The position numbers were made by a program, and so were the translations under genes. DNA of 64,000 nucleotides, from positions 256,661 through 320,660 of the forward strand of contig CAZNJU010000001.1 in assembly GCA_964573625.1 (NCBI GenBank), given 5' to 3'. The first letter of the stretch is position 1. Every line of letters starts with the position of its first letter. Below are positions 15,153 through 57,345 of the stretch, one piece after another. This DNA is from Candidatus Woesearchaeota archaeon. GTDB taxonomy: Archaea; Nanobdellota; Nanobdellia; Pacearchaeales; GW2011-AR1. The notes under the pieces were generated by a model. It was not told the DNA's origin and did no database searches. It was given only the letters and a program-made list of their open reading frames with translations.

Positions 15153-15182
15153 AAAGGTTTAAATTAACCTTTCGGTTAAAGG
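15153..15182 (+). promoter_or_regulatory. two overlapping palindromes containing TATA-like TTTAAATTA upstream of tyrS
   Basis: AAAGGTTtaaattAACCTTT spans 15153-15172 and CCTTTcggttAAAGG spans 15168-15182. Both lie in the divergent intergenic region 5 nt before the tyrS ATG. Confidence 0.35.
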
Positions 15183-15186
15183 AGAT

Positions 15187-18348: not shown

Positions 18349-19548
18349 GTGCTTATTGAACTAGTCGGAGGAGTTATTGCTGGATTGATTGTTGGAACAA
18401 TAACGGGCCTTCTTCCAGGAATACACATAAATTTAATTGCTGCGTTTATTGTATCCTCTTCAGCAATTCTAGAAAAGATTAATCCTCTTTCACTTGTAGC
18501 ATTTATTGTTTCTCTAGCAATAACACATACTTCGTTAGATTTTATCCCTTCGGTTTACTTGGGGGCACCAACTGACGAAACTGCTCTTTCGGTTCTCCCT
18601 GGTCACGAACTATTAAAGGAAGGTAAAGGTCATGAGGCAGTAATTATCGCATTATACGGAACAGTAGCAGGAATACTGATTGGGGCAATACTTCTTCCCT
18701 TTTTCCTAAGGTATTCCAAAATTTTCCAACAAGCAATTACAAATATATTGCCATTTATTTTGATAGGAATTTCATTATATGTAATTTTACGTGAAGAGAA
18801 ACCAATAATGGCTGGAGTTATTTTTAGTCTTGCAGGCATATTAGGAATAGTTTCTCTGAATCAACCAATAAATGAACCGCTTCTCCCTTTACTAACCGGT
18901 TTATTTGGAACTTCTGGAATGATTTTAAGTCTAAAAAACAACAATAAGCTTCCTCCTCAAATAAGTACGCCGCTCAATGAAATAAAAATCTCTAGAAAAG
19001 AATTAATTTCTGTGTTAATAGCTGCAATAGTTGCAGCACCCATCGGATCTTTTTTACCTGCTCTAGGTTCAGGATATGCTGCGCTTATTGGAAGTGAAGT
19101 GAGGGAATTATCAAGAAAGGCATTTTTATTCCTCAACGGGCTACTTAATACGACTATTATGATGATGAGCTTTGTAATGATATTCACATTGAATAAAGCA
19201 AGGACTGGTGCTGCTGCAGCAATTAGTGAACTGCTCACTAAGATAAGCATAAGCGACTTGACGATTATGCTTATTATCAGTACAATTACAATACTGTGTG
19301 CATTTATCCTTGGAGTATACCTTTCTAAAGTGAGTGCCAAGTTCATATCTCAGGTTTCTTACCCGGTTATTTCTGGAATGATTATTATTTTCGTAACTTT
19401 GTTAGTGGTAATTCTATCGGGATTTATAGGAGCACTAGTTTTAATGACTGCGACATCACTAGGAATATTTACAGTACGATCAAATGTAAAAAGAACAACT
19501 CTTATGGGCTGTTTAATTGTTCCAACAATTATATATTATCTTATCTAA
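18349..19548 (+). CDS. polytopic membrane protein, TctA/DUF112-like
   Basis: About ten TM helices and repeated GxxxGxLPG(I) motifs typical of the TctA family. The assignment is tentative. Confidence 0.4.
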   Translation: MLIELVGGVIAGLIVGTITGLLPGIHINLIAAFIVSSSAILEKINPLSLVAFIVSLAITHTSLDFIPSVYLGAPTDETALSVLPGHELLKEGKGHEAVIIALYGTVAGILIGAILLPFFLRYSKIFQQAITNILPFILIGISLYVILREEKPIMAGVIFSLAGILGIVSLNQPINEPLLPLLTGLFGTSGMILSLKNNNKLPPQISTPLNEIKISRKELISVLIAAIVAAPIGSFLPALGSGYAALIGSEVRELSRKAFLFLNGLLNTTIMMMSFVMIFTLNKARTGAAAAISELLTKISISDLTIMLIISTITILCAFILGVYLSKVSAKFISQVSYPVISGMIIIFVTLLVVILSGFIGALVLMTATSLGIFTVRSNVKRTTLMGCLIVPTIIYYLI

Positions 19549-22500
19549 AACCAACGTTTCAAAGCTTCTTGTTTTTCTTTCTCTTTTCCAAAAATTCCTT
19601 GAATGTCTTTTTCAGTTATCTCAAGACATTCAAGCAAATAAGGGCTTACATTGTACGTTCTAGCTAGATTAAGTGCCGAGGCAAGATACTTGATAATGCT
19701 TCCTTCAGAAATAGTGAAAATAAGTTTTCCGCCACATGCTGAACATTTGCCTGATAGAGGCACTCTTCTAAAGCTCTCATTGCATTCAACACATCTGAAC
19801 GCCTGCATAGAGAACTTTCTAAGGTTACCCCTGATATCTCTCATAAAATGTCTTTCAATAGTTAAACGTGCAACGTCTGTTAAGTCAACAGCACGTATCT
19901 TACTACATAACCTCATTTGAGAGTTGACTTTGTCTTGCATAGTCGGAAGCGTTTTGTAACTTGAACAAAGAGGTCCTCCGTTGATATTACTCACCTCATA
20001 AAAGTAATTAACATTATCAAACTCGTGCTCTCCTCCGATTCTGCCTCTAATTTGTTCCATTTTGAGAGTCATAGGGCTTTGCTCAAGTTCCGCAGCTTCA
20101 TAGAGTGCTAGTGGAACCGTCTTACTTACATCTAGGTCAAAAATCATATCATCTACTTCTCCTGCGCGCATACGTGTGTTAAGAACGAGCGGTGCATCTT
20201 GAGTTCCACCTCTGTGCGAAGGTAAGAATTTACGTGAAAAATTGATAAGTAGATCCATAAGAAGCATTACGGCAGCTTCATCACCATCGCAGTCTCGACG
20301 CATAGCTGCATGGATATAAGGTGAGGCGAGAAGAGCCTGTACTTTTGAAAATCCTATGATTCTTCCAACTACTGCTGCACAATTATGAGGTGCTATGCAT
20401 CCTAAAAGTTGTCCAACAAGATCTTCTTTTTTTGCAAGGTTAAAGAATCTAGGCAAATTATAAAGTCTGTCAAGTTCGTCATCAACGAATTTAGTGATAT
20501 TTAGAAAAACTGTATCTGCTCGCTCATCCGGGCTTTCGGGACAAGCTGGTAAAATTATATCGTGTGGAAATATTTCAAGAACTTGATTATCATTCTCCAG
20601 AGGTTTACCATTCACGTCTTTTTCATAACCCATTTTGAGTAATGTTTCAACCGACGTACCCACTTCTTTTGGTTTAAAATGAGTTATGGGCATTTCAGTC
20701 ATATCATACCTAATAGTTCCATCTTTGTTAACATGCAAATTATACTTTGCACGAAGCAATCCCTTGCCTAGATGCTCACAACTATGGTCTGCACTAGATG
20801 TTCCTCGAACGCCTTTTACTGCAGCAGGTATTTCCTCAATTCGAACCCCTGTAAGTTGCTTAGCTTTTTCAAAAAACGTCTTGATATCTACTCGCTGTTT
20901 AGAAAAGGGAAGACCCTTATTATGTTCGATACATACACTATCGTAAAGTCTATCACATTGAGGACAATAAAGTTTTTTCTTACAAGTCTCATGACACTGA
21001 TCACACACAGGATAAATTTTCTGCACATTACAAGTAGTACAGTGATAAAGAGGAAAGTCGCTACGTACTGTTCCAACTTCAACAGCTGCTTGAACGCTTC
21101 GTAATCTTCCGCCTTCAGTTCCAACTGGAAAGAGTACATGCGGGCTTCCTGTAAGTTTGCGTAGCTTAGCTTTTTCAGGACGACCCATACGTGCCCCGAT
21201 GAAAGTGCCTGCTTTATCTTTGATAGGTATTGACGACAGAGCGTTTATGATACTTAGCACATCGACTTCGGCAGGTATTTGAGAAATAAGTTTCTCAAAA
21301 GATTGTTCAAGGGAGTCATAAGTGGTGATTCCTAAATTAAAAAGGAGGGCTCGTGCAGATACCTCAGAAATAATTACATTTTCTAAAGATACTTCATGTG
21401 GACATCCTATAAGCTCCAAAACACGCTTACCTCGTGCAAAACGCTCGCGATCTACTTTGGTAAATGGAAGTACAAATCGAGAAGTGTATGTACCTCTTGA
21501 TATCCAGTCTATTAAAGCCATAAAATCGTCACGATCAATTTGACTCCAATAAAAAGTGTAAGACGGATGAAGGGCTATAGAATACTTCTTGGAAAGCTCG
21601 ATAGAGTTGTCCAATGAAGGCACTAGCTCGGAAGTGCCTCCTGCCTTAATGAGTTGTTCTAACCAATACTGCTCAACATATCCCGGTTTATCGAGTAAAT
21701 GATTTCGATTTCGATAGTCGCCATAAGGTACAAGTATGTCTCCTAAATAGATTATTTCAGCAAGCTCTGGGGCAAATTGCTTTGCTTGATCTGAGGTAGA
21801 CACATAGTGGACGCTTCCATCCAAAAGCTTGATAATTGGTCCATCAATACTGTCGCACACAGCAATAGTACACCCTTTAGTAGGTTTTTCTATTTTAAGT
21901 TGCGTTCCTACGGCAATGAAATTATCTGAAAGGACCATTGTAGCGGGATGGACTGCTAGAGTCGAGTAACCTGTATTACGAGCCCTTCCATATCGAAGCC
22001 TAAACGCTCCAGAATAGCTTGGATGTGCAAAAACAGGTCTCCCCGCAACGAGATCTTTGATATATGTTGCACTGGCGCCCGCTCCAACGGCTTTATTTTC
22101 TTTAATTTTCTTTTGCATTGCAACAAATCCCTCAAGCCAACCCCAGTCGCTCAGCAAAAATCCTTTTTCCTTAAGTTTAATCACTCGTGCAAGGATTTTA
22201 GGAGCTTTCTGTGCAATACCTTCTCCCATGACCAAGGCAAATCCGCTTCGAATATAGTTCGTTTCTATACGTGGAAGATCCTTGTAATTGTAAACCTCTC
22301 TATCTTCACTAGGGTCTCCGGTTAACTGAACAGGTAAGTATTTCATAAGTTCTTCTATTTCCTGTTCACTTGGCAAATATTGAAGATTGTTTATACGTTC
22401 ATGATATTCATAACATTCATGAATTCCTCGCTTCACTTCTTCCTGAGTAGGGTCATAACGAGCATATCCGAAGATTTCACGCAAATGATCAATGATTACT

Positions 22501-22985
22501 AACGAAAAAGCGGCTTCCGTTCCCCCGGCAGAACGAATCGGTCCCGAGAAGTAAGGTGCGAAGTAATCTTTTCCATCCATAGTTTTCTTAAGTTTAAGTT
22601 GAACAAAACCTTCAATAGGTGATGAAACCACTCCAAGAGTGAGATAAGCAATAGCTATACGTATTCCTGCCTCAATAGCTTCGAGATGACTTGCAAATTT
22701 ACAGTAAGTTTCCTTTGCAACTTCTTCCGCGACACGTAAAGCAACCGCAGGGTCAAGACTTCCGTATTGCTTCTCTAAATCTAGGATTCTTTTAACAAGT
22801 CGCGGATCAGCTATCTGAGGATATACTGCAGAAATAAGTCCTACTGCTCTTTCAGCAAGAGAAGTCGCCTGTGGAACTTCAATAGAAGAAACTGGATCTA
22901 TTCCTCTCTGTCTTGCCTGTTCAGCTAGAGCGTAACAACTTTTTACATTTTCGTTAAGAGATTCAAAATATTGGTTGATGTTCAT
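19545..22985 (-). CDS. polC: DNA polymerase II (PolD) large subunit DP2
   Basis: 1146 aa. The N-terminus aligns with archaeal DP2 (…RQRGIDPVSSIEVPQATSLAERA) and there are several Cys4 clusters (CTTCN…CDQC, CPQCD). No intein is apparent. Confidence 0.85.
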   Translation of the reverse strand: MNINQYFESLNENVKSCYALAEQARQRGIDPVSSIEVPQATSLAERAVGLISAVYPQIADPRLVKRILDLEKQYGSLDPAVALRVAEEVAKETYCKFASHLEAIEAGIRIAIAYLTLGVVSSPIEGFVQLKLKKTMDGKDYFAPYFSGPIRSAGGTEAAFSLVIIDHLREIFGYARYDPTQEEVKRGIHECYEYHERINNLQYLPSEQEIEELMKYLPVQLTGDPSEDREVYNYKDLPRIETNYIRSGFALVMGEGIAQKAPKILARVIKLKEKGFLLSDWGWLEGFVAMQKKIKENKAVGAGASATYIKDLVAGRPVFAHPSYSGAFRLRYGRARNTGYSTLAVHPATMVLSDNFIAVGTQLKIEKPTKGCTIAVCDSIDGPIIKLLDGSVHYVSTSDQAKQFAPELAEIIYLGDILVPYGDYRNRNHLLDKPGYVEQYWLEQLIKAGGTSELVPSLDNSIELSKKYSIALHPSYTFYWSQIDRDDFMALIDWISRGTYTSRFVLPFTKVDRERFARGKRVLELIGCPHEVSLENVIISEVSARALLFNLGITTYDSLEQSFEKLISQIPAEVDVLSIINALSSIPIKDKAGTFIGARMGRPEKAKLRKLTGSPHVLFPVGTEGGRLRSVQAAVEVGTVRSDFPLYHCTTCNVQKIYPVCDQCHETCKKKLYCPQCDRLYDSVCIEHNKGLPFSKQRVDIKTFFEKAKQLTGVRIEEIPAAVKGVRGTSSADHSCEHLGKGLLRAKYNLHVNKDGTIRYDMTEMPITHFKPKEVGTSVETLLKMGYEKDVNGKPLENDNQVLEIFPHDIILPACPESPDERADTVFLNITKFVDDELDRLYNLPRFFNLAKKEDLVGQLLGCIAPHNCAAVVGRIIGFSKVQALLASPYIHAAMRRDCDGDEAAVMLLMDLLINFSRKFLPSHRGGTQDAPLVLNTRMRAGEVDDMIFDLDVSKTVPLALYEAAELEQSPMTLKMEQIRGRIGGEHEFDNVNYFYEVSNINGGPLCSSYKTLPTMQDKVNSQMRLCSKIRAVDLTDVARLTIERHFMRDIRGNLRKFSMQAFRCVECNESFRRVPLSGKCSACGGKLIFTISEGSIIKYLASALNLARTYNVSPYLLECLEITEKDIQGIFGKEKEKQEALKRWF

Positions 22986-24526
22986 TGTGTAAAATCAAGA
23001 ACTTTAAGTTCGCGAGTCTTGACGTTGAACAAAGGAACTTTACAGGGATCAGGCACATTTCCAACCTTTTCTTCGAACTCTGTTTGAGCTTGCCAGCAAC
23101 TTCCCGTTATAATAATGGTCCCATTATAATTTTCGATATCTAGTCTGTGTACCTCTCCTGTGCATAAAACATCAGGTACTTCAGAAATAACAAGAGGATC
23201 ATGTTGAGCATTAGGAACATATACAATACTGGGACTAACTCCGTGTGTTGGAGCAAGATGTCTACGCTTAAGCATGTGTTTTACAGCTCGAGCCGGGCAG
23301 CGATGTGCTTTAGCAGCGCGTAGTTCATCAATTTCATTAATAAATGCATGAATGCTTGCTCCGTGATACATGAGTACTTTGAATTCTTTATCGCCTTCAG
23401 TAAGTTTAATCATTGAAGGATTCGAAACAAGAAAAAGATTAGGGAAAGCATAGAGCGCCTCTCCGTAAAAAGAATCAATCATTGGTTGAGGTTCAGCAAC
23501 ACGAACGGAATCGTGTTGTCCAGGACACATAAACATGGTTATATGTGGAGGCACCTGTTTAATATATGAAGCAAGCTTCGCGTATTGTTCTTTCAAACTC
23601 TTAAGGTTGAGCAGTCTTTCTTGTCCAGGAAAAACACCCACTCCATCTACATTATCTCCTACAAAAAAAATGTAACGTATAGACTTGGCAAGTTCATTTC
23701 CGCTATTGAGCCAATCAAGGAAGCGTTGAAATTCTGTTCCCAAATGCTTTTGGCTACCAACGTGTACATCTGAAACAAAGGCGATAGAATAATCTTCATC
23801 GAATCTTACTTTTTCCTTAAACGAATCAGGAAAAACAATATCGTGTACAAAAACAATTTCTCTGTTTCCAGAACCCTTTACAAGAACCACATCATCTAAT
23901 TGTAATTCACTTGCTTTTGAAAAACAGTCTGCATTTTGTTTGATAAGGGCCTTAACGCTCCCTGTTAAATCCTCAAAAGTAATTATTATATTTTTGTTGG
24001 GAGTTGTTCTTTTATCTGTAACAATTCCAATAAAGGAAAATCGTTGCCTATCTCCCGCAATTTTATTTAAGGATACTAAATTTTGTAAATCCCCTCGTTG
24101 CATAAGAATGCGTTGTAATTGTTGATAACGAGATCTAAAGTGTCCTACAAAATCAGCAATTTCTATCTTTTTATGGTTCTTGGTGTCAGTATAATATATT
24201 TGAAAGGGTAAATTTTCCTTCTTATCTTGACTGATCGGTGCAACAGAAGTTGATTTTTGAATTTCAACAGTAATTCCCATTTTGATAAAAACCGTTTCAA
24301 CTTGTTGCTTCATTTCTCCAGGCAAGCTTTTAACAACGTTTAGAACATATTCTGCATTCTTTGTCAAACTAGATGAAGTAATCATCTTCTGTCCCGAGAC
24401 TTTTTCCAAATTGTTTAAGAGATTCTTCGCAATCTCTGCGTCTGAAAAAGAGGTAAGTAAATCAAACAGATCTTTCTCTAAGAATAATCCTCTCTGTCTA
24501 ATAAATGCAATCGTGTCTTGATTCAT
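22982..24526 (-). CDS. polB: DNA polymerase II (PolD) small subunit DP1 (calcineurin-like phosphoesterase)
   Basis: Mre11-like metallophosphatase motifs (DVHVGS, GDNVDGVG, GQHD) and an N-terminal OB domain. Its stop overlaps the start of DP2. Confidence 0.85.
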   Translation of the reverse strand: MNQDTIAFIRQRGLFLEKDLFDLLTSFSDAEIAKNLLNNLEKVSGQKMITSSSLTKNAEYVLNVVKSLPGEMKQQVETVFIKMGITVEIQKSTSVAPISQDKKENLPFQIYYTDTKNHKKIEIADFVGHFRSRYQQLQRILMQRGDLQNLVSLNKIAGDRQRFSFIGIVTDKRTTPNKNIIITFEDLTGSVKALIKQNADCFSKASELQLDDVVLVKGSGNREIVFVHDIVFPDSFKEKVRFDEDYSIAFVSDVHVGSQKHLGTEFQRFLDWLNSGNELAKSIRYIFFVGDNVDGVGVFPGQERLLNLKSLKEQYAKLASYIKQVPPHITMFMCPGQHDSVRVAEPQPMIDSFYGEALYAFPNLFLVSNPSMIKLTEGDKEFKVLMYHGASIHAFINEIDELRAAKAHRCPARAVKHMLKRRHLAPTHGVSPSIVYVPNAQHDPLVISEVPDVLCTGEVHRLDIENYNGTIIITGSCWQAQTEFEEKVGNVPDPCKVPLFNVKTRELKVLDFTQ

Positions 24527-25728
24527 AGGTCTAAAGAAGTCCTCAAAATCTCCTTTGATTTTGCCATAAGAGGGGTTGGAATCATGAGTTTGATTTCTCT
24601 TGTTCTACCCTGCCTTCCTTTACTTACTACTTGCGCATTAATTATTCCTAACATATCGAATTCTGCCAATATATCTGAAACGCGCCGCTGTGTTAATACT
24701 TCATTTCGTGTACGTTCACAAACCTCTTGATATTTATTATAAATATCTCCTGTGTATAGTCTGTTTTCTCCTGCTGATTCGGTAAGTTGAATAATTGAAA
24801 AGAGTACGAGTTGAAACTGCTTAGGTTCATTCTCAATAATATCCAACATTTTATCACGCTCTATTTTTTTATTAGCCTCATCTATATGTTTCAATCCTAC
24901 TACTGCGCTATTTTCCCTATCGGCAAGCTCTCCAGCAACTCGTAACAAGTCAAGCGCCCTACGAGCATCTCCATGTTCACGAGCAGCAAACGCAGCGCAT
25001 TTAGATATAACTCCTTCTTCAAGAACACCCTCTGTAAATGCCTGTAAAGCTCGTTCCTTCAGTATATCTTGTAACTGTAAAGCATTATAGGGTGGAAAAA
25101 CAAGCTCTTCTTCTCCTAATGAACTGCGAACCCTAGGATCTAGTTCATCCATAAAAGTAAGACTATTACTTATACCTACTATACTAATTTGAGCATTCTT
25201 TAGTTCGGAATTGAGACGTGTTAAGGTATAAAGAAAACTGTCTGATATTTTTTTAACAGCTTGATCTATTTCGTCAAGTACTATAAGAACAATCTGCTTT
25301 CTATTATCAATAAGTTCTACAAATTTATTATAAACACTATCTGTAGGAAGTCCTGTCGCGGGAACGCTTCCTCCTAAATTATGAATAAGTTCTGCTAAAA
25401 TACGATATTCCGTGTCTGCTACTTTCTTTAACTTACAATTTACGTAAACTACTTTTAAAGATTGGCCACCGCTGTCTTTGACCCTCTTAGTGAGTTCGTT
25501 ACTTACGTACTGTACAGATAAAGTCTTACCTGTGCCTGTTTTACCATAAACGAATAAATTACTTACCCGTTCTGTTCTAAGTGCTGGAGCAAGAATAGAA
25601 GCTACTAATTCAATTTGATCATCTCTATGTGGAATCGTTTCAGGGGTGTAATTTATTTGTAAAACACTCTTATTTTTGAACAAACTCTTGCCCGCAACAG
25701 AATCAAATATTTTTCCAAGTTCTGGCAT
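24523..25728 (-). CDS. cdc6: Orc1/Cdc6 replication initiator
   Basis: AAA+ Walker A YGKTGTGKT, Walker B VLDEID and a C-terminal winged-helix domain. It is the first gene of the cdc6-polD operon, directly beside the AT-rich region. Confidence 0.85.
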   Translation of the reverse strand: MPELGKIFDSVAGKSLFKNKSVLQINYTPETIPHRDDQIELVASILAPALRTERVSNLFVYGKTGTGKTLSVQYVSNELTKRVKDSGGQSLKVVYVNCKLKKVADTEYRILAELIHNLGGSVPATGLPTDSVYNKFVELIDNRKQIVLIVLDEIDQAVKKISDSFLYTLTRLNSELKNAQISIVGISNSLTFMDELDPRVRSSLGEEELVFPPYNALQLQDILKERALQAFTEGVLEEGVISKCAAFAAREHGDARRALDLLRVAGELADRENSAVVGLKHIDEANKKIERDKMLDIIENEPKQFQLVLFSIIQLTESAGENRLYTGDIYNKYQEVCERTRNEVLTQRRVSDILAEFDMLGIINAQVVSKGRQGRTREIKLMIPTPLMAKSKEILRTSLDL

Positions 25729-26088
25729 GATACACCTCTTTCTGAAAGAGTATCCATTAGATTATAAACTTATTGTCACTGAAACCTCTATTTCCTATGG
25801 AAATAGCTCTAATTTCATACTTTATAAAAAAGGAGACTGACACCAACGTTTCCACTGGAAAATAATAAAAATAAAAATAAAAATATATCTATTATATACT
25901 ATATTATATATATTATAATATATAAATATTTAAAAGTAAAAAATAGAAAAAAAGAAAAGTAAATTTGTTTTTAAATCTTAGTATATATTCCATACGAAAT
26001 CATGGGGTGAGGGTGTTGTATATGAATAATCGTATAGCTATTAACAATTATACAAAACTTTAAATACCTCCTCCGCTGTTTTTCTAGA
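25729..26088. other. putative chromosomal replication origin (oriC): ORB-like dyads + AT-rich DUE + G-string ORB
   Basis: The dyads TTTCCtatGGAAA (25791-25805) and TTTCCACTGGAAA (25849-25862) match the Pyrococcus/Sulfolobus mini-ORB core TTCCAGTGGAAA. They are followed by about 120 bp of almost pure A/T (25860-25985). After that comes TTCCAtacGAAAtcatGGGGTGAGGGTG (25989-26016), a degenerate dyad plus a G-string as in full ORB elements. The region is adjacent to cdc6. Confidence 0.6.
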
Positions 26089-26349
26089 ATGGCATTAGAA
26101 AAGAGACCACTTAAGCATGTTCTTGGTAAACTCGTAGTTACTAAAGAAGGTAAGCGTTTAGGTCTTGTAAAAGACGTTACATTTGAAACAAGAACAGGAG
26201 AACTGCTTCAATTACTCTTAAAAGATGCAACGATATATACTAAAAACCTGAATTTAGAGGTTTCTCAGGATAAAGACACAGTAGTTCCTTATAATTCTAT
26301 TATTGCAATAGGCGATTTCGTGGTTGTTTCTGAAGAAGATCTTACATAA
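26089..26349 (+). CDS. PRC-barrel domain protein
   Basis: Reads LGKLVVTKEGKRLGLVKDVTFETRTGELLQLLL and is 86 aa long. Confidence 0.5.
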   Translation: MALEKRPLKHVLGKLVVTKEGKRLGLVKDVTFETRTGELLQLLLKDATIYTKNLNLEVSQDKDTVVPYNSIIAIGDFVVVSEEDLT

Positions 26350-31873: not shown

Positions 31874-32503
31874 ATGGATCCTATAAAAGAAGCATTTCTA
31901 AAAGCAAAGCAAGATATACAGTTTTTGAATGAAAAAATAGACAAATTAACCCAAGAACTAGAAGAATTAAAGCGAACTCTAAATACATCATATCAGTCAG
32001 TTCAGCCAACCAACCAACAGATGATTCCAACACATCAACACCCTCTAGAACACTTAAAAAGCTCAAAAACAAGCTTCTCCACTGGAAATGAAGGGGTTCC
32101 AACCAACCAACCAACAATCCAACCAACCAACCAACGCACTGGAAATGAAGGGGTTCCCGATAAGATCAGCCATCTTGAACGAGTTTCAGAGATCCTAGGA
32201 TCTCTCGATGCATTAAAGAAAGAAGTTCGCATTAAATTTAAGAAGCTTACCCAGCAAGAAATGGCTATATACGGAGCAATTTACCAGCTTCAAGAGCAAG
32301 GAAATATCGTCGATTACACCTTATTAGCCTCAAAACTCAAATTATCAGAGATTTCAATACGTGACTATATTCGAAAAATAGCTACCAAGGGCATCCCTCT
32401 CAACAAAGAAAAAGTCGATAATAAAAAAATTAGGCTCACAATTCCAGAGGATTTGCGCCGAGTAGCAACCCTAGAAACGATTTTAGCTCTCCGCGAGCTA
32501 TAA
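31874..32503 (+). CDS. coiled-coil + C-terminal winged-HTH protein with internal 60-nt direct repeat
   Basis: N-terminal heptads (LNEKIDKLTQELEELKRTL). The tandem repeat actggaaatgaaggggttcc(aa/cg)...ccaaccaaccaac encodes ...TGNEGVPTNQPTIQPTNQRTGNEGVP. The C-terminal wHTH reads QEMAIYGAIYQLQEQGNIVDYTLLASKLKLSEISIRDYIRKI. Confidence 0.45.
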   Translation: MDPIKEAFLKAKQDIQFLNEKIDKLTQELEELKRTLNTSYQSVQPTNQQMIPTHQHPLEHLKSSKTSFSTGNEGVPTNQPTIQPTNQRTGNEGVPDKISHLERVSEILGSLDALKKEVRIKFKKLTQQEMAIYGAIYQLQEQGNIVDYTLLASKLKLSEISIRDYIRKIATKGIPLNKEKVDNKKIRLTIPEDLRRVATLETILALREL

Positions 32504-32575
32504 ATATCACTCCTTTCGGTATACCGAATAAAATAGGGGCTTAGCTATACCTTTTCCTTTCAAACTGTTCTATCA

Positions 32576-32603
32576 AAATTCGTTTTAACGCGAACTTTTG
32601 ACA
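32576..32603. repeat. AAGTTCG-box repeat copy (inverted orientation)
   Basis: aaaattcgttttaacgcgaacttttgac; the reverse complement contains AAAGTTCGCGTTAAAACG. Confidence 0.4.
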
Positions 32604-32914
32604 CTCACTTTTTGATCACTCAGAATCATCGCTTATCAGCGTGGATGATCCCTCACTTTTTGCACAAAAAAGGGCCAACAGTACCCTCTTTTTGAATCAA
32701 AATCCAGTAAATATCACTCACTTTTCACTTCCTCCGCTATAGCTTGCTCATAATCCTCACTTTTCTCTTCTTTTTCCCCCTTTTTGAGGCGTTTTTCCTT
32801 GCCCTTAACTCTCACTTTTGCGTATTTTAGGAGTTTAATACGAACTTCTTCACTAATAAACACTCTCTTTTTCCCATTTCCCTCAGTTATCTCCTCAATC
32901 AAGCCCTCACTTTT
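32604..32914. repeat. six dispersed copies of CTCACTTTT
   Basis: Copies at 32604, 32652, 32717, 32756, 32811 and 32906. They span the intergenic region and the 3' end of the minus-strand wHTH gene. Confidence 0.45.
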
Positions 32915-33403
32915 CTGCTTTATAGCATTTATTTGTCCTCTAACCGTACTTCTCTCTTTTCCAAGTAGCCTGGCTAGATCCTCATAGCTCAACTTCAGGC
33001 CCTCTCCGGCATTCAATAGGGTAAAAATCAATAGTCTCTCATTAGCTGATAGTTGATTCAAAATAGCATATAAATTACCTGTTTGAACAGGTGTTTGAAC
33101 ATCTTCTTCAACATCTTCAACAGCTGTTTGTTTGTCTAAAACACCCGTTTTTTTAAACAGCTGTTTGTTTTTTGCCTCAAAATCAACTAAGCTTAAACCT
33201 TCACGGAGCGATTCAATCTCTTCACGAACCGTCGCTAAATCCAATTTTAGGCTGTTTATCTCATCAAACAGCTGTTTGTCATGAGTATCCAGGTGTTTAA
33301 TCCAGCTTCCAACTTTCTCAAGATCCTTTTTAACTCCAGAAAAACCATGTTTGGTTGCTTCCTCTAATTTCTTATCCTTGTTTCCGAAAATCCATCCAAA
33401 CAT
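32714..33403 (-). CDS. coiled-coil + winged-HTH protein (paralogous architecture to 31874..32503)
   Basis: The start is trimmed to MFGWIFGNKDKK, because the track's extension reads through the iteron array. It has the heptad segment LKLDLATVREEIESLREGL and the wHTH ERLLIFTLLNAGEGLKLSYEDLARLLGKERSTVRGQINAI. Confidence 0.45.
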   Translation of the reverse strand: MFGWIFGNKDKKLEEATKHGFSGVKKDLEKVGSWIKHLDTHDKQLFDEINSLKLDLATVREEIESLREGLSLVDFEAKNKQLFKKTGVLDKQTAVEDVEEDVQTPVQTGNLYAILNQLSANERLLIFTLLNAGEGLKLSYEDLARLLGKERSTVRGQINAIKQKSEGLIEEITEGNGKKRVFISEEVRIKLLKYAKVRVKGKEKRLKKGEKEEKSEDYEQAIAEEVKSE

Positions 33404-33720
33404 AAACACCTTAAAACCCCTGTATTTATAAACTTTACGCCTTTTTACACATTCCAACACATCCTCCAACACACCAAAAAAACACCCCTGTTTAAACAGG
33501 CAAACAGCCCATAAACACCCCTTTTTCAAAAGCAAACAGGCAAAAAACACCTTTAAACAGGGTCAAACACCCCTAGAATAATCGACGATAAAACAGCCCA
33601 ACAGCTGTTTAAACACTCTTGCCTCAATTATCAGTGAGGCGCGAAGCGCCGAACGCGCCCGACAACACAAAAAACACCTGTTTTTAGGGCAATTCACAAG
33701 ATATTTAAACTTCAGTACCC
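33404..33720. repeat. iteron-like array: interleaved AAACAG(G/C) and AAACACC(CCT) short direct repeats
   Basis: There are at least seven AAACAGG/AAACAGC units and at least six AAACACC units in about 300 bp. One copy forms the palindrome AAACAGCTGTTTAAAC. The region is non-coding and lies directly upstream of the wHTH gene. Confidence 0.55.
33622..33661. repeat. 40-bp GC-rich hairpin repeat, copy 1
   Basis: cctcaattatcagtGAGGCGCGAAGCGCCGAACGCGCCCg. The GGCGC-GAA-GCGCC stem-loop is embedded in AT-rich DNA. Confidence 0.55.
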
Positions 33721-33730
33721 TTAACAAAAC

Positions 33731-33892
33731 ATGGTATTAGTTTCAGTAGCCATTTCAGCCGTATTGGCCATCATTTTAGGCATTTTAATCCTCGTATTCC
33801 CAAGGCTATTACGTTGGGCCGTAGGATTTTATCTGCTCATTTTCGGAGTCCTGCAACTTCTAGCACAGGCGTACCCTTCTTTCTCCCCATAA
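33731..33892 (+). CDS. small membrane protein (53 aa), DUF3096-like; not in ORF track (<60 aa)
   Basis: MVLVSVAISAVLAIILGILILVFPRLLRWAVGFYLLIFGVLQLLAQAYPSFSP is an ATG..TAA frame of 54 codons. It has two TM helices with the ILGILILVFP...GxYLLIxGVLQLL pattern. Confidence 0.4.
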   Translation: MVLVSVAISAVLAIILGILILVFPRLLRWAVGFYLLIFGVLQLLAQAYPSFSP

Positions 33893-33952
33893 AAATTCCC
33901 CAACACAGGCCCCTTTAGAAAGGATTAAAAACCAATCAAAACACCCAAAACT

Positions 33953-34339
33953 ATGGAAACAGCAAAAAGAATTAATGAAAAACCATCTCCTTTAGTAATC
34001 GCTGCCGCAGCAGTTGGCGCACTAGGCCTCGTGACCTACGGATTCATCACCCAAAAGCCTGCCCCAGAAAGACCTTCTTTGACAGGCAAGGTTACCTATG
34101 AAAGTCCCTTAAGTTTCAGCGGAGGCTTCGCCTATAGTTGGAGAATTGAGACGCCCGAAGGAGATTCACGTCTTATCGGAACATCAGCAGACGTATATTC
34201 TCCCAAGACCAACCAACCAAAACCATTTGGCCTGGGCGATGAAGTAAAAATCGACCTCAGAGGACTCGATCAAACGTACGAGTACGGGCCAAGAATAACG
34301 GATCTAAAATATGCTTCTATAGTTTCAAAAAACAAGTAA
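33953..34339 (+). CDS. hypothetical exported/membrane-anchored protein
   Basis: An N-terminal hydrophobic segment (LVIAAAAVGALGLVTYGFI) and then a beta-rich domain. It is flanked by the two GC-rich hairpin repeats. Confidence 0.4.
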   Translation: METAKRINEKPSPLVIAAAAVGALGLVTYGFITQKPAPERPSLTGKVTYESPLSFSGGFAYSWRIETPEGDSRLIGTSADVYSPKTNQPKPFGLGDEVKIDLRGLDQTYEYGPRITDLKYASIVSKNK

Positions 34340-54211: not shown

Positions 54212-54266
54212 ACCTTTTCGTTACTACTGAACAAAGGTTTAAATATAGGAATTTTATTCTAAAATC

Positions 54267-55912: not shown

Positions 55913-56109
55913 AAGGAAAGAAAGTCAGTTCCCTATTAATAAGTGAGTATAACGAAGACAGCATCCGTGTTTCGCCTCTTGACGGAGACTACCGCACAAG
56001 ACGTCATCAGCTTGACTTCTGTGTTCGGAATGGGAACAGGTATTTCCTGATGACTGTGACCGTCTTCAATCCATCATCATACCAACCATTTAAAAAGGTT
56101 TCGTTACAC

Positions 56110-57175: not shown

Positions 57176-57218
57176 CTCTGCAAAGCTTTAAAACTCCCTA
57201 GTAGATAATTCCCGTAAG

Positions 57219-57305
57219 CGCGGTTAGTTTAATGGCAAAACATCTGGTTTCCAAAATCGCTCTCTAAGCACTTGAAAACACCAGAGGTCACGGGTTCGAT
57301 TCCCG
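57219..57305 (+). tRNA. tRNA-Gly (anticodon UCC) with ~26-nt intron at canonical 37/38 position
   Basis: Exon 1 is gcgcggtta-gttt-aatggca-aaac-a-tctgg-ttTCCa, the intron is aaatcgctctctaagcacttgaaaac and exon 2 is a-ccaga-ggtc-acggg-ttcgatt-cccgt-accgcgc-a. Removing the intron restores the anticodon stem tctgg/ccaga. Confidence 0.65.
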
Positions 57306-57345
57306 TACCGCGCAGTTTACTCTTCGAGCATAATTCACAGATTAT

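What the first reader, a model, noticed from the sequence alone, without database searches (positions are those of the whole stretch)
25729..26088. Probable oriC: ORB dyads, long pure-AT DUE and a G-string ORB next to cdc6-polD operon
The two dyads TTTCCtatGGAAA and TTTCCACTGGAAA match the archaeal mini-ORB core and are followed by about 120 bp of A/T. On the far side lies TTCCAtacGAAA plus GGGGTGAGGGTG. The arrangement cdc6-polD(small)-polD(large) abutting oriC matches Pyrococcus.
Basis: partly seen in the sequence, partly recalled or inferred. Interest (0 to 1): 0.6.

Follow-up and report, generated by a model that had tools for sequence, protein, structure and literature searches.

The report
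Replication origin of a DPANN archaeon
The 360-bp gap beside the cdc6 gene is an ordinary archaeal chromosome replication origin in an uncultivated Pacearchaeota-type archaeon, and about 6 kb away a fourth, near-perfect initiator-binding site sits inside a protein-coding gene with its synonymous codon positions frozen across species.

Summary
The window 25729-26088 is the intergenic gap between orc1/cdc6 (followed by PolD DP1 and DP2) and a PRC-barrel gene.

It holds three full-length origin recognition boxes (ORBs). P1 and P2 lie on the minus strand and D on the plus strand. P2 and D are inverted around a 126-nt stretch that is 92.9% A+T, the least stable DNA in the window.

A weight matrix built only from relatives ranks these three sites as the top three of the 64 kb. 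The same layout, in the same positions and orientations, recurs upstream of cdc6 in about 70 Pacearchaeota/Nanoarchaeota genomes. The Cdc6 is an Orc1-1/ORC1 orthologue.

Base-composition skew within the window is uninformative. No experiment exists.

This is a new member of a well-known kind. Two details go beyond that:
- The unwinding element has a conserved, oriented internal structure: two promoter-like BRE/TATA boxes and a T-tract at fixed distance from D.
- A fourth ORB at 32077-32112 lies inside a conserved coiled-coil/winged-helix gene, always 1-8 kb from oriC, with synonymous codons frozen in 12 of 12 homologues.

The parts
24523..25728 (-). orc1/cdc6 initiator gene (401 aa)
   Evidence: Pfam Cdc6_C, Cdc6_lid and AAA. 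NCBIfam equivalog NF001625 scores 502 bits against a cutoff of 501. Best solved relatives are S. solfataricus Orc1-1 2QBY_A (1.4e-103) and A. pernix ORC1 2V1U (3.9e-95).
19545..24526 (-). PolD small subunit DP1 (22982-24526) and large subunit DP2 (19545-22985), in an operon-like arrangement with cdc6
   Evidence: Pfam DNA_pol_E_B/Metallophos for DP1 and PolC_DP2_N/central/cat for DP2. DP1 follows cdc6 in 77 of 80 related loci.
25761..25773 (-). cdc6 BRE/TATA promoter element (ATAAGTTTATAAT); the SD GAGGTG lies at 25733-25738
   Evidence: The consensus GATAAGTTTATAAT is conserved at a fixed offset after P1 in relatives. Coordinates. The TATA starts 40 nt before the ATG.
25777..25802 (-). ORB P1 (TTCCATAGGAAATAGAGGTTTCAGTG), promoter-proximal, 74 nt before the cdc6 start
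   Evidence: Top hit of the window with the P1 matrix built from relatives (30.8 bits). Relatives carry it at about -77 in the same orientation.
25835..25860 (-). ORB P2 (TTCCAGTGGAAACGTTGGTGTCAGTC), bordering the DUE on the cdc6 side
   Evidence: 28.5 bits with the P2 matrix. Three mismatches to the published common ORB motif. The relatives' consensus is TTCCAnnGGAAAYnAnGGTGTGnG.
25862..25987 (.). Duplex unwinding element (DUE), 126 nt, 92.9% A+T
   Evidence: Most AT-rich and least stable segment of the 64 kb. In 24 loci (the window plus 23 relatives) the P2-D interval is a median 161.5 nt and 84% AT, with a 60-nt core of about 97% AT.
25920..25935 (-). Palindromic TATA-like box inside the DUE (TTTTAAATATTTATAT), followed by a (TATAT/TATTA)n run at 25883-25924
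   Evidence: The only match of the window at one mismatch or fewer. Exact in about 25 of 70 loci, at a fixed 55 +/- 2 nt from the D dyad. 57 matches in 50 kb of origin zones against 10 in 573 kb elsewhere.
25936..25959 (-). T/C-rich tract on the cdc6-sense strand (CTTTTCTTTTTTTCTATTTTTTAC)
   Evidence: In D-anchored stacks of 37 loci, positions +31 to +50 are 65-68% T. Coordinates.
25967..25981 (-). BRE/TATA-like element next to D (CTAAGATTTAAAAAC), pointing towards cdc6
   Evidence: TTTAWAWA starts 11-13 nt from the D dyad in 20 of 37 loci and within 40 nt in 29 of 37, preceded by a purine-rich stretch. It has the same form as this genome's gene promoters, for example AACAAAGGTTTAAATATAGG, whose TATA starts 29 nt before start codons.
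25988..26015 (+). ORB D (TTCCATACGAAATCATGGGGTGAGGGTG), inverted relative to P1 and P2, with a strong G-string at 26004-26015
   Evidence: 38.8 bits with the D matrix, top of the window. The relatives' consensus is TTCCATAMGAAAYCAWGGGGTGAGrG, at -265 to -555 from cdc6 (mostly -290 to -420) on the opposite strand. TCCA/GAAA/GGGGT are in the register of the published common motif.
26054..26349 (+). Divergent PRC-barrel gene (26089-26349) with its BRE/TATA (26054-26068); probably leaderless
   Evidence: Pfam PRC. A PRC-barrel gene lies divergent from cdc6 in 64 of 80 loci. TATA at -30.
32077..32112 (+). Remote ORB embedded in the coding sequence of ORF209 (31874-32503), encoding S-T-G-N-E-G-V-P-T-N; a partial second copy lies at 32135-32157
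   Evidence: Exact match to the published common ORB motif. Fourth-best hit of the window with the oriC-derived matrix. Synonymous codons are frozen in 12 of 12 homologues. The gene always lies 1-8 kb from oriC, on the PRC-barrel side, with the ORB on the same strand as D.

Best explanation
The region is the chromosomal replication origin (oriC1-type) of a Pacearchaeota/Nanoarchaeota (DPANN) archaeon.

Shown by sequence:
- Three Orc1-type recognition boxes lie next to the orc1/cdc6 gene.
- P2 and D face each other across an easily melted AT-rich element, with their dyads (the winged-helix half) towards the DUE and their G-strings (the AAA+/ISM half) pointing outwards.
- P1 lies 58 nt (55 nt edge to edge) beyond P2, and its end is 3 nt from the cdc6 BRE/TATA.

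Inferred from Sulfolobus, Aeropyrum and Pyrococcus:
- ATP-bound Orc1/Cdc6 monomers bind each box with fixed polarity and bend the DNA.
- The P2- and D-bound molecules recruit MCM to the intervening DUE, where melting and bidirectional synthesis begin.
- P1-bound Orc1 additionally represses or tunes the cdc6-polD operon. Spacing between P1 and P2 in steps of one helical turn suggests the two bound proteins act on the same DNA face.

More tentative inferences:
- Two conserved, cdc6-directed promoter-like boxes and a T-tract inside the DUE may recruit TBP/TFB or drive transcription that helps opening.
- A fourth, high-quality ORB inside a conserved nearby gene may act as an extra-origin Orc1 site, either regulatory or titrating.
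For: A weight matrix built from relatives, with the window left out, puts the three sites first, second and third among about 128,000 positions (27-32 bits; the next is 20.6).

The DUE is the least stable DNA in the window.

Conservation:
- 80 related loci were fetched. About 70 have enough upstream sequence. They show P1 at about -77, P2 at about -155 and D at about -300 to -350, with fixed orientations and class-specific flanks that were not used for selection.
- An AT-rich DUE separates P2 and D in 24 of 24 testable loci.
- The order PRC-barrel / oriC / cdc6-DP1-DP2 is conserved.

P2-to-P1 spacing is quantised at about 58, 68, 78, 88 and 98 nt. The period is 10-10.5 nt, with mean resultant length R = 0.65.

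Literature definitions:
- An ORB is a dyad read by the winged helix plus a G-rich element read by the ISM. The ORB(-)/DUE/ORB(+) pattern is found in 67% of CDC6-type oriCs (10.64898/2026.08.15.744077).
- The common ORB motif is TCCA[CG]T[TG]GAAA[TC][GA]AAGGGGT (PMC4164010).
- TTCC and GAA are the invariant cores in Pyrococcus (PMC1904270).
- Sulfolobus oriC1 has three ORBs, two of them inverted around the DUE (PMC12141716).

Third-codon-position GC skew (GC3 skew), corrected for gene strand, has its best step at 26.1-26.3 kb (t = -4.0; 15 of 1000 permutations reach it).
Against: There is no experimental evidence: no binding data, marker frequency or initiation-point mapping.

The raw cumulative GC, RY, MK and AT curves have no turning point at 25.9 kb within the window. 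The corrected GC3 step has the unusual polarity, with the presumed leading strand C-rich, and it is not antisymmetric. Skew is therefore neutral at best. Only 18 of 224 RefSeq archaeal genomes show a bacterial-type skew (10.1101/808410).

Only 64 kb of a roughly 760-kb contig was seen, so other cdc6 genes or origins cannot be excluded.

Some archaea replicate without their oriC and Cdc6 (T. kodakarensis, PMC5663688).

Only P2 lies within three mismatches of the published common motif. P1 and D differ in the dyad spacer and tail.
Confidence: 0.85

Rival explanations
1. The region is only a regulatory region. The ORBs are operators through which Orc1/Cdc6 auto-regulates the cdc6-polD operon and the divergent PRC-barrel gene. 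The AT-rich DNA is simply a divergent promoter region. Replication starts elsewhere or without a fixed origin.
For: P1 ends 3 nt from the cdc6 BRE/TATA. The DUE contains two conserved elements indistinguishable from this genome's own promoters. Orc1 paralogues act as transcription factors in Sulfolobales (PMC9738581). T. kodakarensis replicates without oriC and Cdc6 (PMC5663688).
Against: An inverted ORB pair around the single least stable segment of the window is the origin signature, not a layout that an operator needs. D and P2 lie 140-270 nt from the cdc6 promoter, and D is 38 nt from the PRC promoter element. The architecture matches experimentally proven origins. Regulation and origin function are not mutually exclusive.
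Confidence: 0.08
2. It is a true oriC-type locus, but a dormant or minor one. The bulk of replication starts from another origin on the unseen part of the chromosome, or by recombination-dependent initiation.
For: Only 64 kb of about 760 kb was seen. There is no clear skew inversion in the window. Dormant origins exist in haloarchaea (PMC4595724).
Against: Strong purifying conservation of all three boxes, their spacing and the DUE substructure across dozens of species argues for continued use. Small DPANN genomes with a skew pattern have a single cdc6-adjacent origin (Ca. Forterrea, PMC5905446).
Confidence: 0.06
3. The repeats are a chance clustering of short palindromes in an AT-rich intergenic region.
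For: The core motif is short (12 nt), and AT-rich DNA produces many imperfect inverted repeats (one search lists 37).
Against: No shuffle out of 100 reaches the observed counts. A matrix built from other species picks exactly these three sites. The sites are conserved in position and orientation in about 70 genomes.
Confidence: 0.01

Closest known systems
Thermococcales oriC (Pyrococcus abyssi/furiosus): oriC-cdc6-dp1-dp2 cluster
   Same: The origin lies directly upstream of a single cdc6 gene that is followed by the two PolD subunit genes. The ORBs have invariant TTCC and GAA cores. Two long ORBs are inverted around AT-rich DNA (PMC1904270).
   Different: The organism is a mesophilic-type, low-GC DPANN archaeon. 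There are only three boxes, not many 13-bp mini-ORBs. There is no ORB cluster inside dp1 (the best dp1 hit is 8-10 bits). The extra coding-embedded ORB lies in a different gene, ORF209, on the other side of the origin.
Sulfolobus/Saccharolobus oriC1 (Orc1-1; ORB1-3, ucm/UBP)
   Same: The initiator is orthologous (2QBY_A, 1.4e-103). There are three ORBs, two inverted around the DUE and individually essential in Sulfolobus (PMC12141716). There is a conserved sequence motif inside the DUE.
   Different: The DUE-internal motif here is TTTWTAAATATTTATAT plus a BRE/TATA-like box and a T-tract. It is not the ucm ATTATACAAAC. The only ucm-like site in the region lies outside the DUE and is at chance level. 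No UBP homologue was tested.
Aeropyrum pernix oriC1 ORBs bound by ORC1 (structure 2V1U)
   Same: The initiator is orthologous (3.9e-95). The box is built as a dyad followed, after about 4 nt, by a G-string. The recalled ORB4 sequence, CTCCACAGGAAACGGAGGGGT, is from memory and was not checked against a paper.
   Different: The G-strings of P1 and P2 are degenerate (GGTTT, GGTGT). The composition is AT-rich.
Haloarchaeal oriC1 with G-string ORBs
   Same: Inverted ORBs ending in G-strings lie next to cdc6 and flank an AT-rich DUE (PMC1868953, PMC3528665).
   Different: There is no extended halophile-specific G-string, and the neighbouring genes differ.
Initiator-binding clusters outside the origin: Thermococcales dp1 ORB cluster; E. 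coli datA/DARS (conceptual)
   Same: A high-quality initiator box lies a few kb from oriC, inside a gene, and is conserved across the lineage (PMC1904270).
   Different: Here it is a single box (sometimes with a partial second copy) in a winged-helix protein gene. It is recognised only from frozen synonymous sites. Binding and function are untested. The datA analogy is from general knowledge only.

Membership tests
Archaeal Orc1/Cdc6-dependent replication origin (oriC1 type) | Lies in an intergenic region directly adjacent to an orc1/cdc6 initiator gene | tested here: met
   The gap 25729-26088 abuts cdc6 at 24523-25728.
Archaeal Orc1/Cdc6-dependent replication origin (oriC1 type) | Two or more ORB elements with a dyad core (TCCA...GAAA) and a G-rich tail in the canonical register | tested here: met
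   There are three elements. D has TCCA/GAAA/GGGGT in the exact register of the common motif. P2 has three mismatches to it. P1 and D differ in the dyad spacer and tail.
Archaeal Orc1/Cdc6-dependent replication origin (oriC1 type) | ORBs in inverted orientation flanking an AT-rich duplex unwinding element (ORB(-)/DUE/ORB(+)) | tested here: met
   P2 (minus strand) and D (plus strand) flank 126 nt of 92.9% AT, the least stable DNA in the window. The pattern is defined.
Archaeal Orc1/Cdc6-dependent replication origin (oriC1 type) | Architecture conserved in related genomes | tested here: met
   About 70 loci have the same three classes, positions and orientations.
Archaeal Orc1/Cdc6-dependent replication origin (oriC1 type) | Coincides with an extreme of the compositional disparity curves | tested here: inconclusive
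   There is no turning point in the raw curves within 64 kb. Strand-corrected GC3 skew steps at 26.1-26.3 kb (15 of 1000 permutations) but with atypical polarity. The full contig is not available.
Archaeal Orc1/Cdc6-dependent replication origin (oriC1 type) | Bound by Orc1/Cdc6 and used as the initiation site (ChIP, footprint, marker frequency, initiation-point mapping, ARS assay) | not testable with these tools
   No read-depth or wet-lab data are accessible.
Thermococcales-type origin region | Gene order oriC-cdc6-dp1-dp2 | tested here: met
   Conserved in 74 of the 76 related loci long enough to show it.
Thermococcales-type origin region | Second ORB/mini-ORB cluster inside dp1, and multiple 13-bp mini-ORBs in oriC | tested here: not met
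   The best dp1 site scores 8-10 bits against 27-32 for the oriC boxes. No further TTCC...GAAA cores occur in the gap.
Sulfolobales-type origin with ucm/UBP | ucm motif ATTATACAAAC inside the DUE | tested here: not met
   The only one-mismatch site in the region (26047-26057) lies outside the DUE. Three matches in the window compare with 2.2 expected.

The most novel reading that the evidence does not exclude
Origin control in these small-genome DPANN archaea may use elements not described for any archaeal origin.

(a) An ultra-conserved, canonical ORB is embedded in the coding sequence of a conserved coiled-coil/winged-helix gene 1-8 kb from oriC. It is kept by nucleotide-level selection; the peptide S-T-G-N-x-G-V-P in a disordered linker is largely its passenger. 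It may act as an extra-origin Orc1 site, for example a datA-like titration or ATPase-control site, or a cell-cycle switch for that gene.

(b) Two conserved promoter-type BRE/TATA boxes inside the unwinding element, at fixed distance from the distal ORB, may mean that TBP/TFB binding or transcription from within the DUE helps to open or time the origin.
Probability: 0.3. Interest if true: 0.65.

Novelty: new member of a known kind. Interest (0 to 1): 0.42.

Why it matters
Nothing is known experimentally about how DPANN archaea, which are tiny, mostly uncultivated and probably symbiotic, start DNA replication.

This locus and its roughly 70 relatives give a precise and testable origin model for a whole order:
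- Three boxes of distinct sequence class.
- Helically phased spacing between P1 and P2.
- A structured unwinding element.

That model is useful for growth-rate estimates from metagenomic read depth, for checking genome assemblies, and for designing shuttle vectors.

The embedded ORB with frozen synonymous sites would be a clear case of a replication-protein site constraining a protein-coding sequence. It hints at origin-external control of the initiator in archaea, where no system of the datA or DARS type is known.

Tried and rejected
- Raw cumulative GC, RY, MK and AT disparity curves show no extreme at the locus. The RY maximum at 18.4 kb follows the gene-strand switch at the polD operon.
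- Rfam finds no RNA family in the gap at gathering threshold. It finds only 5S rRNA and tRNAs elsewhere.
- Retrieving the 760-kb parent contig through the exact Cdc6 sequence returned only an identical 2.6-kb contig from another run, L081. Full-genome skew was therefore impossible.
- A Pyrococcus-like ORB cluster in dp1 is absent.
- The Sulfolobus ucm motif is absent from the DUE.
- I considered that the ORB inside ORF209 is a by-product of a conserved peptide. Any ORB translates to S-x-G-N-x-G-V in one frame, and a six-frame peptide search recovers the oriC P2 boxes. I rejected this as the sole cause because synonymous sites are frozen only there.
- I considered that ORF209 belongs to a mobile element or virus. 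The 30-nt pattern has no match in 2.9 million viral contigs, and the gene sits in conserved chromosomal synteny.
- The literature searches found no description of a Pacearchaeota origin. There is only an automated survey that covers Nanobdellota and a skew-based origin in a Diapherotrite.

Full report
**Observation**

- TTTCCTATGGAAA at 25791-25803.
- TTTCCACTGGAAA at 25849-25861.
- An A/T-rich run at 25862-25987.
- TTCCATACGAAA at 25988-25999.
- GGGGTGAGGGTG at 26004-26015.

The stated range is exactly the gap between two divergent genes. On the minus strand lies a 401-aa protein with Cdc6_C, Cdc6_lid and AAA domains. It is followed by PolD DP1 and DP2. On the plus strand lies an 86-aa PRC-barrel protein.

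TTCCNNNGGAAA matches 5 times in 64 kb against 0.77 expected, and 4 of those matches are here (two palindromic sites read on both strands). A pattern covering all three cores matches 3 times against 0.14 expected, all here.

The A/T run is not pure. It has 9 G/C in 126 nt (92.9% AT). It is still the most AT-rich and least stable DNA of the window, about 6 sd from the mean.

**The boxes are full ORBs**

The two 'dyads' belong to a 26-nt direct repeat, and the third element is its inverted copy.

Read in their own 5'-3' sense, the three are:
- P1: TTCCATAGGAAATAGAGGTTTCAGTG.
- P2: TTCCAGTGGAAACGTTGGTGTCAGTC.
- D: TTCCATACGAAATCATGGGGTGAGGGTG.

The published 'common' archaeal ORB motif is TCCA[CG]T[TG]GAAA[TC][GA]AAGGGGT (PMC4164010). 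In Pyrococcus the invariant cores are TTCC and GAA (PMC1904270). D has TCCA, GAAA and GGGGT in exactly that register. P2 is three mismatches from the motif. P1 has a weak tail.

On the plus strand the order is P1(-), P2(-), DUE, D(+). The dyads therefore face the DUE and the G-strings point outwards. This is the ORB(-)/DUE/ORB(+) pattern reported for 67% of CDC6-type origins in complete genomes. In that description the dyad is read by the winged helix and the G-rich part by the ISM of the AAA+ domain (10.64898/2026.08.15.744077).

**Organism and initiator**

The closest named Cdc6 relatives are from Pacearchaeota and Nanoarchaeota metagenome-assembled genomes. The identical protein occurs on a 760-kb contig.

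The best solved relatives are the two initiators crystallised on ORB DNA:
- S. solfataricus Orc1-1 (2QBY_A, 1.4e-103).
- A. pernix ORC1 (2V1U, 3.9e-95).

Paralogues score far lower. NCBIfam's equivalog model for ORC1-type replication protein is just passed (502 bits against a cutoff of 501).

**Comparative test**

I fetched 80 related genomic loci with Cdc6 identity of 67-82%.

Upstream of cdc6 the same three classes recur at about -77 (P1), about -155 (P2) and about -300 to -350 (D, opposite strand). The flanks were not used for selecting the sites, and they are class-specific:
- P1: ...GGAAATAGAGGTT, then GATAAGTTTATAAT (the cdc6 BRE/TATA).
- P2: ...GGAAAYnAnGGTGTGnG.
- D: TTCCATAMGAAAYCAWGGGGTGAGrG.

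A weight matrix built from relatives only ranks the window's three sites first, second and third of about 128,000 positions. Each class-specific matrix except P2's puts its own site first.

The P2-D interval is AT-rich in 24 of 24 testable loci, with median values of 161.5 nt and 84% AT.

Synteny is conserved. A PRC-barrel gene is found, always divergent from cdc6, in 64 of 80 loci. DP1 is found downstream in 77 of 80.

P2-to-P1 spacing clusters at about 58, 68, 78, 88 and 98 nt. The best period is 10-10.5 nt, with mean resultant length R = 0.65. The species are related, so the nominal p-value is inflated. The window belongs to the 58-nt class.

**Skew**

The raw cumulative GC, RY, MK and AT curves show no extreme at the locus.

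A gene-level regression of third-position GC skew on gene strand and side has its best breakpoint at 26.1-26.3 kb, with t = -4.0. Of 1000 gene-order permutations, 15 reach this value. The polarity is atypical, with the presumed leading strand C-rich, and the effect is not antisymmetric.

I treat this as inconclusive. Bacterial-type skew is seen in only 18 of 224 RefSeq archaeal genomes. It is, however, reported for one DPANN genome whose origin is next to cdc6.

**Structure inside the unwinding element**

An alignment of the gap with four other loci shows a block invariant within the DUE. One of those loci, L081, is identical to the window.

Read in the cdc6 direction from D, relatives share:
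1. A BRE/TATA-like element (aaaGGTTTAAAWA). It starts 11-13 nt from the D dyad in 20 of 37 loci. It has the same form as this genome's gene promoters, whose TATA starts 29 nt before start codons, implying leaderless mRNAs.
2. About 20 variable, purine-rich nt.
3. A T-rich tract, 65-68% T.
4. A palindromic box, TTTWTAAATATTTATAT, at a fixed 55 +/- 2 nt from the D dyad, followed by a (TATAT/TATTA)n run.

The box (one mismatch or fewer) occurs 57 times in 50 kb of origin zones and 10 times in 573 kb elsewhere. It occurs once in the window, at 25920-25932.

The box is not the Sulfolobus ucm ATTATACAAAC.

The function is unknown. The most economical reading is TBP/TFB sites, or promoters firing towards cdc6 from within the DUE. 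No start codon follows them.

**A fourth ORB inside a gene**

The only other strong ORB in the window is 32077-32102 (20.6 bits). It is an exact match to the published common motif. A two-mismatch partial copy lies 57 nt downstream. Both lie in ORF209 (31874-32503) and encode (S/R)TGNEGVP.

The gene family has at least 2,908 members, mostly Nanoarchaeota 'hypothetical' or 'HTH' proteins. Of the top 120 hits, 114 carry S[TIS]GNxGVPT[DN].

The gene sits in conserved synteny on the PRC-barrel side of oriC, with the ORB on the same strand as D. It lies 1.1-7.8 kb from cdc6 in each of the seven loci (the window included) whose sequence reaches cdc6.

In two 20-kb loci the embedded site outscores the oriC boxes themselves: 26.6 and 26.4 bits against 20.6 and 18.3.

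I compared 12 genes whose products are 38-57% identical to the window's:
- In the motif, the codons are S=TCC 12/12, G=GGA 12/12, G=GGG 12/12, P=CCA 12/12, V=GTT 11/12, T=ACA 11/12, R=AGG 6/6, and N/D=AAC/GAC 12/12.
- Elsewhere in the same genes, invariant L, S, P, R and T columns use three to five codons.

The 30-nt pattern occurs exactly once in each homologue-bearing locus. It occurs nowhere else in the 92 loci held, and not at all in 2.9 million viral contigs.

AlphaFold (pLDDT 82) places the motif in a disordered linker between an N-terminal helix and a C-terminal MarR-like winged helix. The winged-helix assignment is supported by Pfam HTH_11, HTH_36 and DnaD_N hits in about half of the members.

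Conservation therefore acts on the DNA. The precedent is the Cdc6-bound ORB cluster inside Thermococcales dp1. Binding was not tested here.

**Verdict**

The finding is a genuine origin of an established type, in a lineage where origins have only been called automatically. It is a new member of a known kind, and I have high confidence in the assignment.

The structured DUE and the coding-embedded ORB are the parts that a specialist would not have predicted, and they are directly testable.

Noticed in passing
window 32077-32112 (+) and 32135-32157 (+), inside ORF209 31874-32503; also L024, L082-L092: A canonical ORB is embedded in the coding sequence of a conserved coiled-coil/winged-helix gene lying 1-8 kb from oriC. 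Synonymous codons are frozen in 12 of 12 homologues (TCC, GGA, GGG, CCA), while other invariant residues of the same genes use 3-5 codons. The encoded peptide lies in a predicted disordered linker.
   Followed up: yes
window 25920-25981 (-); origin zones of L002-L080: The unwinding element has a conserved, oriented substructure: a BRE/TATA-like box 11-13 nt from ORB D, a T-rich tract, and a palindromic TTTWTAAATATTTATAT box at a fixed 55 nt from D. Both boxes look like this genome's own promoters and point towards cdc6, with no ORF behind them.
   Followed up: yes
L018, L024, L029, L031, L033-L042, L047, L053, L067, L069, L074, L077 (DUE, about 100-125 nt from D): Many relatives carry a further conserved motif, (T)AGTTCGTATTAAT, at the P2-side end of the DUE, often about 40 nt before P2. 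The window's shorter DUE lacks it.
   Followed up: partly
window 25777-25860; 48 related loci: The spacing between ORBs P2 and P1 is quantised at about 58, 68, 78, 88 and 98 nt (period 10-10.5 nt). This suggests helical phasing of two bound initiators. The window has the 58-nt variant.
   Followed up: yes
window 26089-26349 (+): The gene divergent from cdc6 across the origin is a PRC-barrel protein, conserved there in 64 of 80 loci. PRC-barrel proteins (CdpB) are reported as archaeal cell-division factors (10.1101/2023.03.28.534520). A replication operon and a possible division gene may therefore share the origin region. Orthology to CdpB was not tested.
   Followed up: partly
window, gene upstream regions (e.g. 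15158-15186, 54238-54266): Among 51 genes with an upstream gap of at least 35 nt, 26 have a TTTAWAW match in the 70 nt before the start codon. The match starts 26-30 nt before the start codon in 16 of them (-29 in 9). Most mRNAs of this organism are therefore probably leaderless. cdc6 is an exception, with a roughly 11-nt leader carrying GAGGTG.
   Followed up: partly
L091 1-6400 (NCBI JABKBV010000002.1, labelled Methanococcoides sp. SA1): In this Nanoarchaeota-like contig a bacterial-type DNA polymerase III alpha gene (PHP, DNA_pol3_alpha) lies next to PolD DP2. A 695-aa protein with an NT5C hit occupies the usual DP1 position beside cdc6. The species label looks like a binning error.
   Followed up: no
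window 57218-57314 (+): Rfam calls a 97-nt tRNA here that ARAGORN does not report. It is probably an intron-containing tRNA. A 5S rRNA gene lies at 55953-56067 (-).
   Followed up: no
window 32000-34000: This stretch has the strongest negative GC skew of the window (-0.31 to -0.32). It lies just after ORF209, over a minus-strand HTH_38 protein gene (32714-33550). In relatives a XerA-like integrase lies 3.5-7 kb beyond the ORF209 homologue. I did not check whether this stretch is a variable island.
   Followed up: no
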